DNA of 43,030 bases, taken from contig BTVV01000047.1 of NCBI GenBank assembly GCA_045863855.1, forward strand, positions 1-43,030, written 5' to 3'. The stretch comes from Planctomycetota bacterium (lineage in GTDB: Bacteria; Planctomycetota; SZUA-567; H5-PLA8). Position 1 is the first letter of the stretch; each line of letters begins with the position of its first letter. The position numbers were made by a program, and so were the translations under genes. Of this stretch, positions 33,894 through 42,546 are shown piece after piece. Under the pieces are notes generated by a model. It saw nothing but the letters and a program-made list of their open reading frames with translations, did not search any database and had not been told where the DNA came from.

Positions 33894-34505
33894 ATGAGCA
33901 GTCCTTCGGGATCTTCCACGCGCCGCTATCTTAAAGGCGAACAGACCCGCGACCAGATCCTGCAGACCGCCAAAAGGCTCTTCACGCAGAAGGGTTACCA
34001 CAACACCAGCATCTACGACCTCTTCGAAGACGCGCGCATCACCAAAGGCGCGTTTTACCACCACTGGCGCACCAAAGAAGACCTGGCGTTGACGATCCTG
34101 GATGAAATTCGAAACAGCTACACGCAGCACTATTACCCCGTGCTGGAACAGGAGATGAAGGCGCGCGAAAAGATCGAAACGACGCTGCGCAAGATCGAGG
34201 AACTCCACCGCAACAAAGACTGGTCCTACTGCAAGCTCCTCGCGACCTGGAGCAGCGAACTCTCCCCCGACCAGGACGAACTGGGCCGCACGGTCCACGA
34301 AATTCGAACCCGCTGGCTGGCGTTCTGGGAGTTGCTCCTGCACCAAGCCCAAGAGCAAGGCGACCTGCGTAAAGATATCGCCCCGCGCGACCTGAGCTTC
34401 GTGGTGACCAGCGCGATCTGCGGCGTTTACCTAATGGATAAGTCCGAAGACGAGTCGACGATCCACGGGGCGATGGAAACACTTCGGAAGCTATTGCTCA
34501 CCTAG
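33894..34505 (+). CDS. TetR/AcrR family transcriptional regulator
   Basis: TRDQILQTAKRLFTQKGYHNTSI...ITKGAFYHHWRTKEDL. Confidence 0.93.
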   Translation: MSSPSGSSTRRYLKGEQTRDQILQTAKRLFTQKGYHNTSIYDLFEDARITKGAFYHHWRTKEDLALTILDEIRNSYTQHYYPVLEQEMKAREKIETTLRKIEELHRNKDWSYCKLLATWSSELSPDQDELGRTVHEIRTRWLAFWELLLHQAQEQGDLRKDIAPRDLSFVVTSAICGVYLMDKSEDESTIHGAMETLRKLLLT

Positions 34506-34592: not shown

Positions 34593-34648
34593 AACCAACC
34601 GGTTGGTTGTTAATCATATTGACACAGTCTTCACCATGTGATTTAGTT
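34593..34648 (+). promoter_or_regulatory. Perfect 16-bp palindrome (TetR-type operator) followed by a -35 hexamer
   Basis: AACCAACCGGTTGGTT at 34593-34608; TTGACA at 34619-34624; non-consensus AT-rich -10 region near 34642. Confidence 0.7.
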
Positions 34649-34649
34649 A

Positions 34650-35302
34650 GGGTGCATCTACCGAGAATAGACCTAGATCGGACGCAAAGCACCTGTTTGT
34701 AAGGGATTAAAGATTAGGAAATAATTAGTAAGACCTTCGGAGCAAAATAGTTCAGGAAAGAGAGAGGATCATCTCAAAAGCTTGAAGAAACCGACTGGTA
34801 CGGCTGTCTAAGAAGTAGAAGCACTGAAAAGAAGAGATAGACGCGCTGAATAAGGTGAGAACCGAAGACTGGCGCAGAGGTTGCTAAGGCACTTGAAAGA
34901 AAGCACCTTAAGTCCGGAAAGCAGGACCCGAAAAGTAAGGAAGGTTGAACGAGCAGATTGAGTTCTCCCGGATGGCGCTCTGAGGGACGGAGTCCTTGGA
35001 AACCCCTCCTCCACGTCCGTCCCGAAGGGCGGCATCCGGGAGGCTGACAACAAGAGAAACGGTTCGGCGCGCGGGCGCTGGACGCACAAGAGCTGGCCTT
35101 AGCAGAAGGAGGTTCCGAAGTAGCGACACGCGGGCGGGGAAGAGACCAAGGTTGACCCTCCGTAGTACTTAACGAAGGTCTCCTTTCCCACGATTAATGG
35201 CTCACCCCACATCCGCAGTTCAATCGACTTTGGTCTGACCCCGCCCCGTGCCGCACGGACCTTCTTAAAAAAGCCCGACCGCAACCCGGTCGGGCTTTTT
35301 TT
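34650..35302 (+). ncRNA. Candidate large structured non-coding RNA, family not recognised
   Basis: No credible ORF; purine-rich 5' half; long hairpins at 34965-35042 and 35104-35265; promoter-like elements upstream and a terminator at the 3' end. Confidence 0.55.
35267..35302 (+). terminator. Rho-independent terminator, potentially bidirectional
   Basis: AAAAAAGCCCGACCG-CAACC-CGGTCGGGCTTTTTTT. Confidence 0.92.
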
Positions 35303-36664: not shown

Positions 36665-37816
36665 TCACAAGGCAGGCGCGGCGGGCGGGCGGATCGATTC
36701 GCCGGGGATAAAAAGGATGGGGGCGCAGACTTTGCGCGGTGGCCTCAGGACGGGGCGGCAACCTTCGGAATGGAGTTCTTCGGCCAGATCGAAGCAGCGC
36801 TTCACGAGGTTCTCGAACCGCAGATTCACGCTGGCCACGGGGATACCGTTCACGACCAGTTTTTCGTTTCCCCACCACGCCGTCACGATGGACAAGTCCC
36901 TGGGCACGCGCCATCCGTGCCGCGCCAGTTGCTCGATGAGCGGAGCGATGACGGCTTCATAGGTGGCAAAGAAGGCGGTGGGTCTTTGCTCATAGGGCGA
37001 GGCGGCCCATTGGGCGACGGCCGGCACCAGGAAATCCGCGAAAAGGCGCCGCGTCAAGCCCTGCATGCGCGGATACGGGAGCCGCCATGGCGTCCGTATC
37101 GTCCCGCCCAGTTGTCCCACCGTTCGTTCAAATCCAAACCGCCTGTCGGCCCAATTGGGGTCGCAGGCATTACCCGGTAGGTTAAACTCTTCCAGCACCG
37201 CAAATCGGCGATGCCCCCATTCGTACAGGTGCCGCGCGGCGATCGCGCCGACTTCGAAGTCGTCGAAGACCACGCTGTCGAGTCCCGCCGGAGTCGCATC
37301 CTGGTCAACGACCAGCAGGCGATGTGCGCGTAGCCTCTCGGCATCGGCGGCGATGGTCTCCGGGGCTTCCACGAGAAAGCCGAGATCGAAAGCATTCCAT
37401 GGAATTTCCGAGAGCCGAATGCGGTGCCGGCCGGGGGTGGACAAGCGACCGTGCGAATTGGGGCACTCCACCATGGTCATGCCCCGGCGCCTCCCTTCCT
37501 GGAGCAGTTCTTGAATGAGCGCGGTGTGGTCCCAGTCGGGCCGCGGCCATTTGCTCAGGATTCCGATCCGCAGCTTTTTCGGATTCTCGGAAACCGGCCC
37601 TTTCCCTTCCCGAAACCACCCCACGCCGGAAACGGCACGCACCATCCCTTGCCTGCTGAGTTCGCGCAGCGCGTTCTGGATGGTCATGCGGGCGACCCCG
37701 TGGGCGGCCGCCAGTTCGCGAGTGGAGGGCAATCGTTCGCCGGGCGCAAAGGCCTCCTGCACCTGTCTGTGCAGTTGGCGCAACAGCTCCTTGAATACTT
37801 GATCCTTTGTCGCCAC
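36665..37816 (-). CDS. GntR-HTH / LacI-type sugar-binding-domain hybrid regulator
   Basis: PGERLPSTRELAAAHGVARMTIQNALREL; C-terminal DSVVFDD..AARHL...GHRR, PTAFF, VPRDLSIV. Confidence 0.88.
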   Translation of the reverse strand: MATKDQVFKELLRQLHRQVQEAFAPGERLPSTRELAAAHGVARMTIQNALRELSRQGMVRAVSGVGWFREGKGPVSENPKKLRIGILSKWPRPDWDHTALIQELLQEGRRRGMTMVECPNSHGRLSTPGRHRIRLSEIPWNAFDLGFLVEAPETIAADAERLRAHRLLVVDQDATPAGLDSVVFDDFEVGAIAARHLYEWGHRRFAVLEEFNLPGNACDPNWADRRFGFERTVGQLGGTIRTPWRLPYPRMQGLTRRLFADFLVPAVAQWAASPYEQRPTAFFATYEAVIAPLIEQLARHGWRVPRDLSIVTAWWGNEKLVVNGIPVASVNLRFENLVKRCFDLAEELHSEGCRPVLRPPRKVCAPILFIPGESIRPPAAPAL

Positions 37817-38095: not shown

Positions 38096-40018
38096 ATGAT
38101 TCCCAAGACCCTGTCGCTCCTGATCTTCGTGCTGCTCGGCGCGCCGTGCGGCGTTTGGGCCGCGGGCAGCGTGGGCGATCCGCAACTGATGAGCGACCAT
38201 CCCTACTGGCAAGGCGAGCTTTCGTGCTCGACCTTCGACCGACTTTTCAAGAGCCAGGCGGAACTCTACACGCGAGTCACCGGCCGCAAGACGGACCAGG
38301 AAGAAGATAAAGCGCTCGCGAGCTGGTACTGGCGGAACACCCACTATTTTCACTGCACGTCGCTGCCCTTGCCGGACGTGTTTAAGAAGGGCGGGCCCGA
38401 ATTCGAACGTGAGTATTGGAACAGCTTGTTTTCTTTCGGGCACGGGATGTGCCAGGAAAATCACGCTCAATATACCGCCGAAATGGAATACCTCCTGGGC
38501 CATGCCCGCTCTCGCAGCATGATGGTCCAAGGCCATACGTCCTTCGAGGCTTTCATTACGGGCGGCGCCTACGGCACCGGAAAGTGGGTCTTGCTGGACA
38601 GCGACATCACCACCGTCTGCTTCGATAAAGAACAGAAGATGCTGATGAATATCGAGGAGCTGGCCACCAGCGATCGCGCCGCGTACCTGACCCACCGGCA
38701 AGCCAAGGATAATCGCGGCTGGCTTCCCGAGCTGTATCCTGGCGACGGTGAAGGGTACCGGACGACTCTGGCCTATGCGCCCCTGTCCGGATACGCCGGG
38801 GCCCCTCCGATGGTCCACTTGCGCCCGGGCGAGACGTTGCGCCGGTTTCCCCGCCCAGGCTTGGGCAAGGGGGAGCAAGGTACGCTGGTTTTCTGGGGCA
38901 TCTGCGTGGACGGTCTGGACGGCCCGAATCGCCACATTACCTACCTGACCGACCCAGACCGCTGTTTCAATGCCCCGGCGCGCCCCATATTGGAACGAGA
39001 CCCCAATCGCCGCGCTCGCTTCGGGAATGCCGTATTCACCTACAAACCCTCCTTTCAAGATGGCTCCTACAAGGCCGCCGTGGCCGCGGAAGACGGCCAA
39101 TCGGTGACCTTCCAGCACCAGTCGCCGTTCGTCATCGCAGTCAAACCATCCACGAAAAACTGCACCGATCCCGGCGCCACGCTGGGGTTGGTGCTGCAAG
39201 GCCAAGCCACCTGCCAAGTCCGCGTTTCCACCGACGGCATGAAGACGTTTTCCGACCCCGTGGATTTCAAAGACGGTCTGGATCTGTCCGACCTGGTGAA
39301 GGGGCACTACCGTTATTGGTTGCAGTTCATGACCGCGCCTAAGAATCTGGCCAACAGCGGGATCTCGATCACGACCCGGTGCATGGCCAGCGGTTACGTC
39401 ATGCCGCACCTGAAGTCCAATGGCACGCAGATCACGTTTAATACCTCGGGCTTGGCGGTGGAAACCGTCGGTCCGCAGGCCGAAGCGCTGGCCCGGCATA
39501 TCGTCGAAGGTTCGCTGGGCGGGCCTTCGTTTACGGTCAAGCTTAAGACGCCGCGCGGAGAAAAAATCAAGGCCGTCTGCTGGGCTACTCGTTCTCCCAC
39601 GGGGTGCCCGCCCAAGCCCGATTTGGCCTTCAAAGCCGAATACTCGAAAGATGGAAAGAATTGGAGCCTTTTGAAGGACGATTGGCGCATCAATCCGCCG
39701 GAGCCTTACAACCCTCCGGATACCTGGTCGCAGACTTTCTTCTTCGGCACCAAGGATATCTCCGTCGACCAACTGAGCGAGGTGCTGATTCGCATCAGCA
39801 ACAATATGGGGAAGTACTACCAAATGGGCCAATTCTCCGCGATTTACGCAGCCCCCAACGCCGCTCGAACTAAAGTCACCTATTGCTGGACGGAAGGCGG
39901 CGAGGATAAGACCGAATCGCATGTGTATCCGGCCGGCGCGCAGATGGACCGTTCCTGGAAGATCGCCACCGGAAAAGAACCGGCCTTGAAGTGGATCGAA
40001 ACAGAACCCGTAGAATAG
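38096..40018 (+). CDS. Secreted hypothetical protein with a transglutaminase-like C-H-D pattern
   Basis: Signal peptide MIPKTLSLLIFVLLGAPCGVWA; motifs FGHGMCQENH, GHTSFE, KWVLLD; GAGG RBS. Confidence 0.75.
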   Translation: MIPKTLSLLIFVLLGAPCGVWAAGSVGDPQLMSDHPYWQGELSCSTFDRLFKSQAELYTRVTGRKTDQEEDKALASWYWRNTHYFHCTSLPLPDVFKKGGPEFEREYWNSLFSFGHGMCQENHAQYTAEMEYLLGHARSRSMMVQGHTSFEAFITGGAYGTGKWVLLDSDITTVCFDKEQKMLMNIEELATSDRAAYLTHRQAKDNRGWLPELYPGDGEGYRTTLAYAPLSGYAGAPPMVHLRPGETLRRFPRPGLGKGEQGTLVFWGICVDGLDGPNRHITYLTDPDRCFNAPARPILERDPNRRARFGNAVFTYKPSFQDGSYKAAVAAEDGQSVTFQHQSPFVIAVKPSTKNCTDPGATLGLVLQGQATCQVRVSTDGMKTFSDPVDFKDGLDLSDLVKGHYRYWLQFMTAPKNLANSGISITTRCMASGYVMPHLKSNGTQITFNTSGLAVETVGPQAEALARHIVEGSLGGPSFTVKLKTPRGEKIKAVCWATRSPTGCPPKPDLAFKAEYSKDGKNWSLLKDDWRINPPEPYNPPDTWSQTFFFGTKDISVDQLSEVLIRISNNMGKYYQMGQFSAIYAAPNAARTKVTYCWTEGGEDKTESHVYPAGAQMDRSWKIATGKEPALKWIETEPVE

Positions 40019-40573: not shown

Positions 40574-42546
40574 ATGTGGGATCTGATCCGCTCGAACGAA
40601 CGCAAGTCGCTCCTCTTGATGATGGGGCTCGGCGCGTTCACGGTGCTGGTCGGCGCGATATTGGGCGCGTCCGTCGATCCCGAGCAGGGCTTGGTGACGG
40701 GCGCGTTCCTCGCGCTGGGCACTTGGCTGATCCTCACGATCGTCACGTACTTCGCGGCGGACTCGGCGGTGCTGAGCATGTCCGGCGCGCGGGAGGTGTC
40801 GCACAAGGAGTTCCCGCAGCTCTGGAACGTCGTCGAGGAACTCTGCATCGCTTCGGGCTTGCCGCGCCCGCGGATCTACGTGATCGAGGACACGGCGCCC
40901 AACGCGTTCGCGGTGGGGCGCACGCCGCAGACGGCGGCGGTGGCGATCACGTCGGGCTTGCTGCAAAGCTGACGCGCGACGAACTGGCCGGCGTGATGGC
41001 GCACGAACTGGCGCACATCCGCAACCGCGACACGAACTATCTGATCCGCGCGGCGGTGATGGTGGGGACGATCGCGCTGTTGTGCGATTTCTTCCTGCGC
41101 TACGCGCGGCTTTTCAAATTCGGCGGCGGTAAGCGTTCGGGCGGGAGCAAAGGCGGCGGAGGCGGCGGCGCGCAGCTCGTACTGCTGGTCCTGGCGCTGC
41201 TTCTGGCGATCCTCGCGCCGATCATCGCCCGGATGCTGTATCTGTGCATCAGCCGGCGGCGGGAATACCTGGCCGATGCGAGCGCGGTGGAGTTCACGCG
41301 CAACCCCGAGGGGCTGGCGAGCGCGCTGGAGAAGATTTCGGCCGACCAGGAGGTGCTGGAGGTCGCCAACCGCGCGACGGCGCCGCTCTTCATCGTCAAT
41401 CCGATCAAAGCTCACGAGGAGCGCGCGAAGGAATTGTTCAGCACGCATCCGCCGCTGAAGGAGCGCGTGGGGATTCTGCGGAGCCTGGGGACGGGCGCGA
41501 CGCTGAACGATTACGAGCGGCAGTTCCGCTTGATGGCGAAGGACGGGAAGCGCGGGCTGTATTCGCCGCGGGATTTGCAACAGGCGTCGTCGGAGCGCGG
41601 GACGCGCCCGGTTCCGAAGGCTCCGGCCGAGGCGGCGTTGGGGCCGGGCCAAGCTCCGTTCGGGCTGGAGAACTTGAAGGGCGGCGCGGCGCGGACGCCG
41701 GAGGCGATGCAGCAGCGTCTGGAGCCGCTGGCTCGCGTGCTGACGGCGGGCGCGGTGGCGCAGGGGCAACTCCCGCCCGAGGCGGTGCTGGCGGCGCTGT
41801 TCGCTCCGGGCGGACTGGGGATGGCCGGAGCGCTGATGATGTCGTGCGCGTGCGGGGAGCGGTTGGCGCTACCGGACCGGCCGAAGCTGGTGGTCTGCGC
41901 GAAATGCGGCGCTCAGACCCCGGTGGCGGCGGAGACGCTGGAGCAGATCGCGCGCGCGAAACGGCAGGCGCAGGCGGCACCGCAAGCGGCGGGCACGGTT
42001 CCACCTCCCCCACCCTTCCCTCTCGCTGGGGGAGAGGGTAAACAGCGGCCGGTTCCGGCAGCTTTGGGCTCAGGCGGGGTTCCGGTTCCTCCGCCGCCGA
42101 AGCCCGTGGCGGCCGGGGCGAGCTACGGCGTGCGCGATGCGGATGGGGATGGGAAGCTGGACAGCGTGAAATTCGAGGAGCGCCAAAGCGGCGCGGCGCG
42201 CTGGGAGATGTTCAAGGAACTGGAGGAAGACAATTCGCGGGGCGGAAAGGAGCTGCGCGGATCGGACCTGAATCCGCGCGCGCGTCCGCCGGCGCCTCCC
42301 CCGCCCGCTCCCGGCGCGCGGCTCGGATCGGAGGGCGTGCCGGCGCCGCCGCTTCCGGCCGAGGCGAAAGGCGGGCAACCACCGGACGATCCGGGTAACG
42401 ACGAGGCGCGGCGAGCGCTGATTCCGGATGCGTTCGCGTGCGCGTGCGGCTACACGCGCGAGGTGCCGGCAAACTTCAAGGGGAGCCGGTTGAAGTGTCC
42501 GAAGTGCGGGGCGCAGCAGGTTTACTATTTGGTGAATGGGAAGTAG
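40574..42546 (+). pseudogene. htpX: HtpX-like M48 zinc metalloprotease with a single-base frameshift near 40965 (real or assembly error) and a C-terminal Pro-rich/Zn-ribbon extension
   Basis: Frame 1 from 40574: PQLWNVVEEL...PNAFAVG...AITSGLLQ-stop. Frame 2 continues KLTRDELAGVMAHELAH...SRRREYLAD...FSTHPP. CTGCAAAGCTG lacks one A relative to CTG CAA AAG CTG. Confidence 0.88.

What the first reader, a model, noticed from the sequence alone, without database searches (positions are those of the whole stretch)
34593..35302. Candidate ~650-nt structured ncRNA with its own operator, promoter and terminator, directly downstream of a TetR gene
Seen: after the tetR stop come a perfect palindrome AACCAACCGGTTGGTT, TTGACA, about 650 nt with frequent stops in the + frames (ATG-started ORFs of 13 codons or fewer), and a textbook terminator. 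The 5' half is strongly A/G-rich, unlike the genome. The 3' half forms two long helical domains. The first pairs CTCCCGGATG(34965) with CATCCGGGAG(35033) and encloses GGGACGGA/TCCGTCCC. The second pairs AGAAGG/CCTTCT, GCGACACG/CGTGCCGC, GGGCGGGG/CCCCGCCC and AGACCAAGGTTGA(35143)/TCGACTTTGGTCT(35224). The last helix needs two G.U pairs that work only on the + strand. I could not find tmRNA, RNase P or SRP hallmarks. Inference: a stand-alone large RNA regulated by the adjacent TetR. A second operator-like sequence, AAACCGACTGGTACGG, lies near 34788. This is the best candidate for an undescribed system here.
Basis: partly seen in the sequence, partly recalled or inferred. Interest (0 to 1): 0.82.

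Follow-up and report, generated by a model that had tools for sequence, protein, structure and literature searches.

The report
TetR-controlled RNA with shared C-rich hairpin
This is an expressed, structured non-coding RNA of one uncultured Planctomycetota family, not found in Rfam, which sits under its own repressor gene and carries a hairpin with a nearly unchanging C-rich tip that also turns up on its own in some phages and tiny symbiotic bacteria.

Summary
Homologues occur in 14 of 16 same-family genomes and 0 of 3 from sister families. All share a promoter, hairpin H1 (34964-35043) with a nearly invariant cap UCCCUGGAAACCCCUCCUCCA, domain D2 (35129-35250; a stem closing a 62-75 nt C-rich loop) and usually a terminator. 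Lengths run 323-649 nt because the purine-rich 5' part varies. Both stems covary. Operator and tetR occur together: both in 21 loci, neither in 13, of 35. RNA contigs from 4 studies lie within 34640-35260. Rfam, literature and earlier-finding searches found nothing. H1 alone occurs in 18 phage-like or CPR-like loci, including beside 16S genes that lack the anti-Shine-Dalgarno tail. Best mechanism (inferred, 0.45): a TetR-repressed, Hfq-independent RNA that pairs its C-rich strands with ribosome-binding sites, as cuckoo/ar14 and 6C RNAs do. The main rival (0.3) is a decoy for a conserved RNA-binding protein. It is not a lemA leader, a small gene, CsrB or a canonical 6S.

The parts
33894..34505 (+). 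tetR-family regulator gene dedicated to this locus (203 aa)
   Evidence: Pfam TetR_N, E 9e-15; orthologue at E<=1e-25 in 10 of 20 genomes of the order, each beside the RNA
34593..34608 (.). Operator palindrome, 10 bp upstream of the -35 box; reads as two ACC-N4-GGT sites offset by 4 bp (inference)
   Evidence: Present with tetR in 21 of 35 loci, absent with tetR in 13, present alone in 1 truncated locus
34619..34647 (+). Sigma-70-type promoter: TTGACA, 17-nt spacer ending in TGn, -10 TTTAGT; predicted start near 34654
   Evidence: Same layout with variable spacer sequence in 26 of 28 homologues
34654..34963 (+). Variable purine-rich 5' segment; not conserved
   Evidence: 28-311 nt in homologues; fold z -0.95; covered by RNA contigs in 2 of 4 runs
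34790..34799 (.). Single ACC-N4-GGT site inside the transcript; doubtful second operator
   Evidence: Found in own genome and, with one change, in L026; not at this place in 5 other long forms
34964..35043 (+). Hairpin H1, about 27-bp interrupted stem with variable sequence
   Evidence: 19 of 21 stem pairs change on both sides in 47 sequences; 0 of 500 shuffles reach the covariation score; z -7.3
34993..35013 (+). Nearly invariant C-rich cap of H1, holding the anti-Shine-Dalgarno-like CCUCCUCC
   Evidence: 17-nt core exact in all 13 family loci found by BLAST; one substitution in 3 loci found through D2
35104..35265 (+). Domain D2: conserved core 35129-35250 (stem closing a C-rich, G-poor loop, about 35156-35223), with a genus-specific outer stem extension
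   Evidence: 122-135 nt in 28 homologues, loop 62-75 nt; 11 of 21 pairs change on both sides, 0 of 500 shuffles
35267..35302 (+). Intrinsic terminator
   Evidence: z -7.0; terminator-like hairpin plus T-run after D2 in 23 of 26 untruncated homologues

Best explanation
A stand-alone regulatory RNA. Shown by computation: one transcription unit (promoter, variable 5' part, H1, linker, D2, terminator) is conserved across the family, its stems covary, it is present in RNA libraries, and its operator comes and goes with the upstream tetR. Inferred: the TetR binds the palindrome beside the -35 box and represses the promoter until an unknown ligand or stress releases it. The RNA then uses rigid stems to display C-rich single strands (the H1 cap and the D2 loop), which pair with G-rich Shine-Dalgarno regions of many mRNAs and damp their translation without Hfq, as cuckoo/ar14 (NfeR1) and 6C RNAs do. 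The RNA's existence I put at about 0.93, TetR control at about 0.85, and this mode of action at about one half.
For: Invariant C-rich tip on freely varying stems is the pattern described for cuckoo RNAs (PMC4615179; PMC10746234). No Hfq in 4 of 4 family genomes tested; NfeR1 and 6C are described as Hfq- or chaperone-independent. The family keeps a normal 16S anti-SD tail (8 of 8 matches read CACCTCC) and uses SD motifs (GGAG before 29% of 816 rough starts, 10% in shuffles). The 14-nt loop pairs at <= -15 kcal/mol with 50 of 1465 start regions against 18 of 1465 mid-gene controls, like the 16S tail (32 against 10). The cap is mostly unpaired in the full RNA in 5 of 5 folds. D2 loops hold about twice as many C as G.
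Against: No specific target stands out, and the whole 23-nt cap pairs no better on average than its shuffles. About 21 invariant letters are more than an anti-SD seed needs. The predicted 3-bp GGA/UCC helix hides part of CCUCC. There is one cap, not two to four repeats. The same cap is kept in CPR-like contigs whose 16S lacks the anti-SD tail and where only 7.6% of 158 starts carry GGAG. In 8 of 18 H1-only loci the hairpin sits directly 5' of an SD and start codon, which looks like a leader element. One RNA contig begins at 34640, 14 nt before the predicted start.
Confidence: 0.45

Rival explanations
1. H1 is a binding site for a conserved RNA-binding protein or ribosomal component, and the Planctomycetota RNA is an inducible decoy for it. 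Phages use H1 in leaders or as a mimic; D2, with conserved short motifs spaced along a 70-nt C-rich loop, is a second protein platform (a Rho-binding-like loop is one candidate, from recall).
For: Cap nearly invariant across a Planctomycetota family, CPR-like contigs and phages; relaxed viral patterns found no variant hairpin among 26 loci. H1 lies directly before SD and start in 8 of 18 H1-only loci, with a promoter just 5' in 4; the short linker makes pairing of the apical loop with that SD in cis unlikely (inference). H1 lies in tRNA clusters (L045, L049, L089) and between 16S and tRNA-Ala (L030, L083). D2-like elements occur without H1 in 3 genomes.
Against: No partner protein is identified; the only conserved neighbour is tetR. 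Cuckoo RNAs also show ultraconserved loops and act by pairing (PMC10746234). No phage-host link was found for 3 phage records against the own genome.
Confidence: 0.3
2. The RNA replaces 6S RNA in this family and binds RNA polymerase.
For: RF00013 finds 6S in 15 of 15 genomes of family f4 but in 0 of 17 of this family. RNase P, tmRNA and SRP RNA are present elsewhere in the own genome. The base of H1 loosely resembles the closing stem of the f4 6S RNAs by eye.
Against: Nine genomes of five other families also lack a 6S match; three of them were tested for D2 and lack it too. No central bubble flanked by two long helices. No 6S match to E=10. ygfA is preceded directly by coding sequence. A dedicated TetR is not a known 6S feature (recalled).
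Confidence: 0.08
3. A cis leader or attenuator of lemA, a small protein gene, or a decayed gene or mobile element.
For: It lies 175 nt before lemA on the same strand; TTG-started frames of 58 (+) and 93 (-) codons exist; D2 has long terminal inverted arms and scattered paralogues.
Against: Downstream genes differ among homologues and several converge on the terminator (ExbB in L028, L051, L080; KARI in L027). No reading frame through the cap has a start in all homologues on either strand, and third positions do not vary. Single copy in the own genome. In run X2 the RNA contig and the lemA contig are separate. G.U pairs are common in the stems.
Confidence: 0.04
4. A CsrB-type or CrcZ-type sponge that acts through the A/G-rich 5' half.
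For: 18 GGA trinucleotides in the own RNA; csrA present in the own genome.
Against: csrA found in only 6 of 17 family genomes while the RNA is in 15 of 17; no Hfq in 4 of 4; the 5' part shrinks to 28 nt and GGA counts fall to 4.
Confidence: 0.03

Closest known systems
Cuckoo / ar14 / RSs0680 RNAs, including NfeR1 (PMC4615179: abstract, background section, first part of Results; PMC10746234: passages)
   Same: Ultraconserved C-rich anti-SD-like loop on stems of variable sequence; own promoter under a transcription factor; NfeR1 is Hfq-independent.
   Different: Cuckoo RNAs have 2-4 short adjacent hairpins, each with CCUCCUCCC, and were found only in alphaproteobacteria. Here one 80-nt hairpin has a 21-nt cap ending CCUCCUCCA, followed by an unrelated stem with a 70-nt loop; 323-649 nt; Planctomycetota, CPR-like contigs and phages.
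6C RNA of Actinobacteria (PMC6486639: abstract and section list only)
   Same: C-rich loops in a high-GC bacterium, acting without RNA chaperones.
   Different: No Rfam match; different size, loops and phylum.
6S RNA (RF00013)
   Same: Single copy, family-wide, present in RNA libraries; no canonical 6S is found in this family.
   Different: No central bubble between two long helices; variable length; dedicated TetR.
Large ornate RNAs ROOL, GOLLD, OLE (PMC12286853: search listing only)
   Same: Size of the longest forms; H1 occurs near tRNA genes in phage-like contigs.
   Different: Only two simple conserved domains, minimum 323 nt, no Rfam match.
TetR repressors such as NemR (PDB 4yze) and the 3knw regulator
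   Same: Fold family; operator-like sites also upstream of tetR in 10 of 17 homologues.
   Different: The apparent only strong target is a non-coding RNA; the cysteine aligned with 3knw is not invariant, so redox sensing is only a lead.

Membership tests
Any Rfam 15 family | Covariance-model score at or above the gathering score | tested here: not met
   Window: best 31.9 bits against 55, on the terminator. 20 further loci at gathering score and 13 at E<=0.01: only rRNA and tRNA.
Cuckoo / ar14 | 2-4 adjacent hairpins of similar size | tested here: not met
   One capped hairpin per RNA.
Cuckoo / ar14 | Loop motif CCUCCUCCC | tested here: not met
   Cap reads CCCCUCCUCCA: 8 of 9 letters match.
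Cuckoo / ar14 | Represses translation by pairing at ribosome-binding sites | not testable with these tools
   Only a hybridisation screen was possible.
6S RNA | Closing stem, central bubble, terminal stem; about 170-200 nt | tested here: not met
   Consensus folds; no RF00013 match.
6S RNA | Binds sigma-70 RNA polymerase and templates short RNAs | not testable with these tools
   Needs immunoprecipitation or in vitro transcription.
CsrB / RsmZ | Conserved repeated GGA loops and co-occurrence with csrA | tested here: not met
   csrA in 6 of 17 genomes; GGA count 4-18.
tmRNA, RNase P RNA, SRP RNA | Model match; being the genome's copy | tested here: not met
   Each has its own copy on another contig.
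Bacterial Y RNA | Encoded next to a Ro60 (TROVE) gene (recalled) | tested here: not met
   Only a 49-residue partial TROVE match on another contig; no Rfam match.
Conserved structured non-coding RNA (general) | Compensatory base changes, own promoter and terminator, no conserved ORF, presence as RNA | tested here: met

The most novel reading that the evidence does not exclude
H1 is a free-standing anti-Shine-Dalgarno module that acts on the translation machinery or on SD-bearing mRNAs independently of the 16S tail, and is exchanged among unrelated RNAs. This Planctomycetota family uses it as an inducible global brake on translation; phages carry it as a leader or mimic; and CPR bacteria whose 16S has lost the anti-SD tail keep it in a 430-560 nt RNA beside the 16S gene, to silence or to serve their minority of SD-bearing genes.
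Probability: 0.17. Interest if true: 0.92.

Novelty: new variant of a known kind. Interest (0 to 1): 0.72.

Why it matters
It adds an RNA family with covariation, expression evidence and a dedicated regulator in a phylum whose regulatory RNAs were barely covered in the library searched. A TetR whose only strong site drives a non-coding RNA gives a direct handle: its ligand names the signal. The H1 cap is the larger question. A 21-nt sequence kept almost unchanged in Planctomycetota, CPR-like bacteria and phages points to a conserved partner, and an 80-nt hairpin can be tested in vitro without culturing the host. Its presence beside 16S genes that lack the anti-SD tail bears on how such bacteria handle SD-bearing messages.

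Tried and rejected
Chance matches: 13 loci from the exact-pattern scans had no hairpin and were dropped before all counts; 5 of the 6 translated encode the same protein motif on the other strand, which I recall as aldose 1-epimerase. L019 was a weak match without the cap. Peptide through the cap: no frame with a start in all homologues. Cap replacing a lost 16S anti-SD tail in this family: rejected, the tail is intact. CsrA tied to long 5' parts: rejected. Wider TetR regulon: 16 sites at one mismatch; of 5 inspected most lie in coding sequence and none was convincing. Long complement of the cap in the own genome: one other site at 2 mismatches, not followed up. Phage hosts: no spacer-like or close match of 3 phage records to the own genome. 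Strand test by folding energy: favours + for H1 (43 of 48) but only 8 of 27 for D2; I ascribe this to the C/A-rich loop giving spurious G.U pairs on the other strand. One search used a mis-spaced pattern and gives no information. H1 in the class of G205: only G205 itself strongly, one weak match not examined, of 151. A likeness of the cap's 5' letters to the anticodon loop of tRNA-Ser(GGA) or to a T-box bulge is recalled only; no anticodon stem can form. Three look-ups of earlier findings returned nothing.

Full report
Observation. The stretch 34650-35302 folds at -249.9 kcal/mol, z -5.5. H1 (34964-35043) and the terminator (35267-35302) each reach z about -7; the D2 core region reaches -2.3. 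The 5' 311 nt are 66% purine but fold no better than shuffles (z -0.95). ATG frames are 3 and 13 codons. Rfam gives no match near a gathering score; the best, Thr_leader at 31.9 of 55 bits, aligns on the terminator. The flanking genes are tetR and lemA. The stretch is single-copy in the own genome.

Distribution. BLAST found it in 11 of 16 same-family genomes, centred on H1. A model of D2 raised this to 14 of 16, plus the own genome, and 0 of 3 genomes of sister families. A model of H1 matched 3 of 151 genomes sampled from the phylum, all of this family. Record titles of the relatives read Planctomycetota. Exact-pattern scans for the cap gave 18 loci in species genomes, 52 in metagenomes and 3 in viral contigs. 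Thirteen had no hairpin and were dropped. Merging duplicates left 50 distinct loci: 32 with D2 and 18 with H1 alone. Three more family loci with one change in the cap came from the D2 model.

Anatomy. Of 28 homologues examined in full, 26 show TTGACN, a 17-nt spacer of variable sequence ending in TGn, and a -10 box of the TTWAGT type. The 5' segment is 28-311 nt, the linker 20-205 nt, D2 122-135 nt with a 62-75 nt loop, and the whole RNA 323-649 nt in the 24 with both ends. A terminator-like hairpin with a T-run follows D2 in 23 of 26 untruncated loci. In H1, 19 of 21 stem pairs change on both sides among 47 sequences, 83% of cells pair against 72% in shuffles, and 0 of 500 shuffles reach the covariation score; slid controls pair 39-49%. 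In D2, 11 of 21 pairs change on both sides among 27 sequences, 0 of 500. These shuffles ignore relatedness, so I added an alignment-free test: own arms of H1 pair at -44.1 kcal/mol on average against -28.1 for swapped arms, with the own arm among the best three in 34 of 48; for D2 the gap is smaller, -39.3 against -33.2, best three in 10 of 27. The cap's 17-nt core was exact in all 13 family loci found by BLAST, where it was not selected for. Relaxed patterns in viral contigs returned 26 loci, and only the 5 rows (3 contigs) with the exact cap scored as H1.

Regulation. Among 35 loci, 21 have both the operator and tetR, 13 have neither and 1 has the operator with only 315 nt of upstream sequence; 5 of the 13 also have under 1.1 kb upstream. 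The loci are related, so this is not a statistical test. The tetR orthologue was found in 10 of 20 genomes of the order, every time beside the RNA; one further copy is degenerate (L027). A looser operator-like site lies just upstream of tetR in 10 of 17 homologues, though not in the window's clade, which fits autoregulation. These sites share ACC-N4-GGT, and the main palindrome holds two such sites 4 bp apart (inference). Repression is inferred from the family and from the position next to the -35 box.

Expression. Twenty of 24 listed RNA runs, from 8 studies, hold part of the stretch. I laid 4 of them, from 4 studies. Single contigs cover 34640-35260 (X1), 34896-35239 (X2), 34922-35233 (X3) and 34672-35260 (X4). 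None runs into tetR or lemA, and in X2 lemA lies on separate contigs from 35373. All are assembled contigs: they give no strand, no level and no exact ends, DNA may be present, and the runs were chosen by this stretch. The X1 contig starts 14 nt before the predicted start, which may be read-through or a misplaced start.

Not a leader or a gene. Downstream genes differ and several converge on the terminator. No frame through the cap has a start codon in all homologues on either strand.

H1 outside the family. Eighteen loci carry H1 without D2 (one search found D2 in none of them). Their neighbours include a portal protein, HNH nucleases, a DNA ligase and tRNA clusters, and 3 records are in the viral collection. 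In 8 of 18 an SD and start codon follow 30-38 nt after the cap, and 4 have a promoter directly 5'. In CPR-like contigs H1 lies inside a larger folded RNA with its own terminator, upstream of tRNA-Ala, and in L030 and L083 downstream of 16S. Those 16S genes end GGATCA followed by a T-run, without CCTCC. In 20 stretches of G205, GGAG precedes 7.6% of 158 rough starts against 2.6% in shuffles; the own genome gives 29% against 10%. D2-like elements without H1 occur in 3 genomes, several just after a stop codon.

Mechanism. The conserved information is two C-rich single strands held on sturdy stems. In cuckoo/ar14 RNAs an identical anti-SD loop sits on variable stems (PMC4615179: abstract, background, first part of Results), and NfeR1 silences ntrB by pairing at the ribosome-binding site without Hfq (PMC10746234: passages). 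6C RNA binds mRNAs through C-rich loops without chaperones (PMC6486639: abstract). This family lacks Hfq in 4 of 4 genomes tested, keeps the 16S tail, and the loop pairs with start regions as the 16S tail does. I therefore favour trans-acting repression at SD regions, at 0.45. Against it: no target stands out, the whole cap is no better than its shuffles, more letters are fixed than a seed needs, and the cap persists where the 16S tail is lost. A protein-binding or decoy role gets 0.3. A 6S substitute gets 0.08: 6S is found in 15 of 15 genomes of family f4 and 0 of 17 here, but also 0 of 9 in other families, and the shape does not fit.

Novelty. No Rfam family matched in the window or 33 further loci. 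A full-text search for three spellings of the cap found no paper; searches on Planctomycetes with non-coding, structured or 6S RNA and on large RNAs listed nothing that describes it, judged from listings only. In PMC10690425, 6 supplementary files lack the cap, but files 1, 2 and 4 could not be searched, so H1 may be among its unnamed viral candidates. Subscription papers and bioRxiv supplements were not searchable. Earlier findings of this scan returned nothing. Verdict: a new RNA family that fails membership of cuckoo, 6C, 6S and CsrB but probably works like an anti-SD RNA; new variant of a known kind; interest 0.72.

Noticed in passing
L030 3000-3510, L083 1220-2250, also L037, L077, L087: CPR-like contigs hold a 430-560 nt strongly folded RNA containing H1, upstream of tRNA-Ala and in L030 and L083 downstream of a 16S gene without the anti-SD tail; no Rfam match.
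   Followed up: partly
L045 about 2130-2480: After H1 and a tRNA-like gene comes another multi-stem RNA of roughly 330-370 nt closed by a long helix, with no Rfam match at gathering score; a tRNA with a CTA anticodon lies upstream.
   Followed up: no
L154, L155, L157, L158, L160: D2-like paralogues without H1 in G003, G011 and G015; in L155 the element lies between genes for small membrane proteins.
   Followed up: partly
L046, L082 with L066, L074; L077, L083, L087 with L065: Five H1-only loci carry the same assembly prefix as loci with the full RNA, so phage-like and CPR-like carriers co-occur with the family; no host link was found.
   Followed up: partly
G000 whole genome and G001-G016: No RF00013 6S match in 17 of 17 genomes of this family, while family f4 of the same class has one in 15 of 15.
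   Followed up: partly
L030 against L037: The same H1 context is filed under a Dehalococcoidia bin and a Staskawiczbacteria bin; one contig is probably mis-binned.
   Followed up: no
L023, L034, L038, L153 (G013): This genome holds at least three diverged copies of the RNA, none with tetR or operator upstream where checked.
   Followed up: no
L143: tetR and operator are present but the -35 and -10 boxes appear lost.
   Followed up: no
window 38096-40018: 640-aa protein with a signal-peptide-like start and no Pfam match, divergent from a GntR/LacI-type regulator at 36665-37816.
   Followed up: no
window 40576-42546: M48 peptidase (HtpX-like) with a long Pro/Ala-rich tail holding CxxC motifs, 4.5 kb from lemA.
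   Followed up: no
G000 contig C2 9734-10085: The same 16-bp palindrome recurs at least three times within 350 bp, possibly a repeat array.
   Followed up: no
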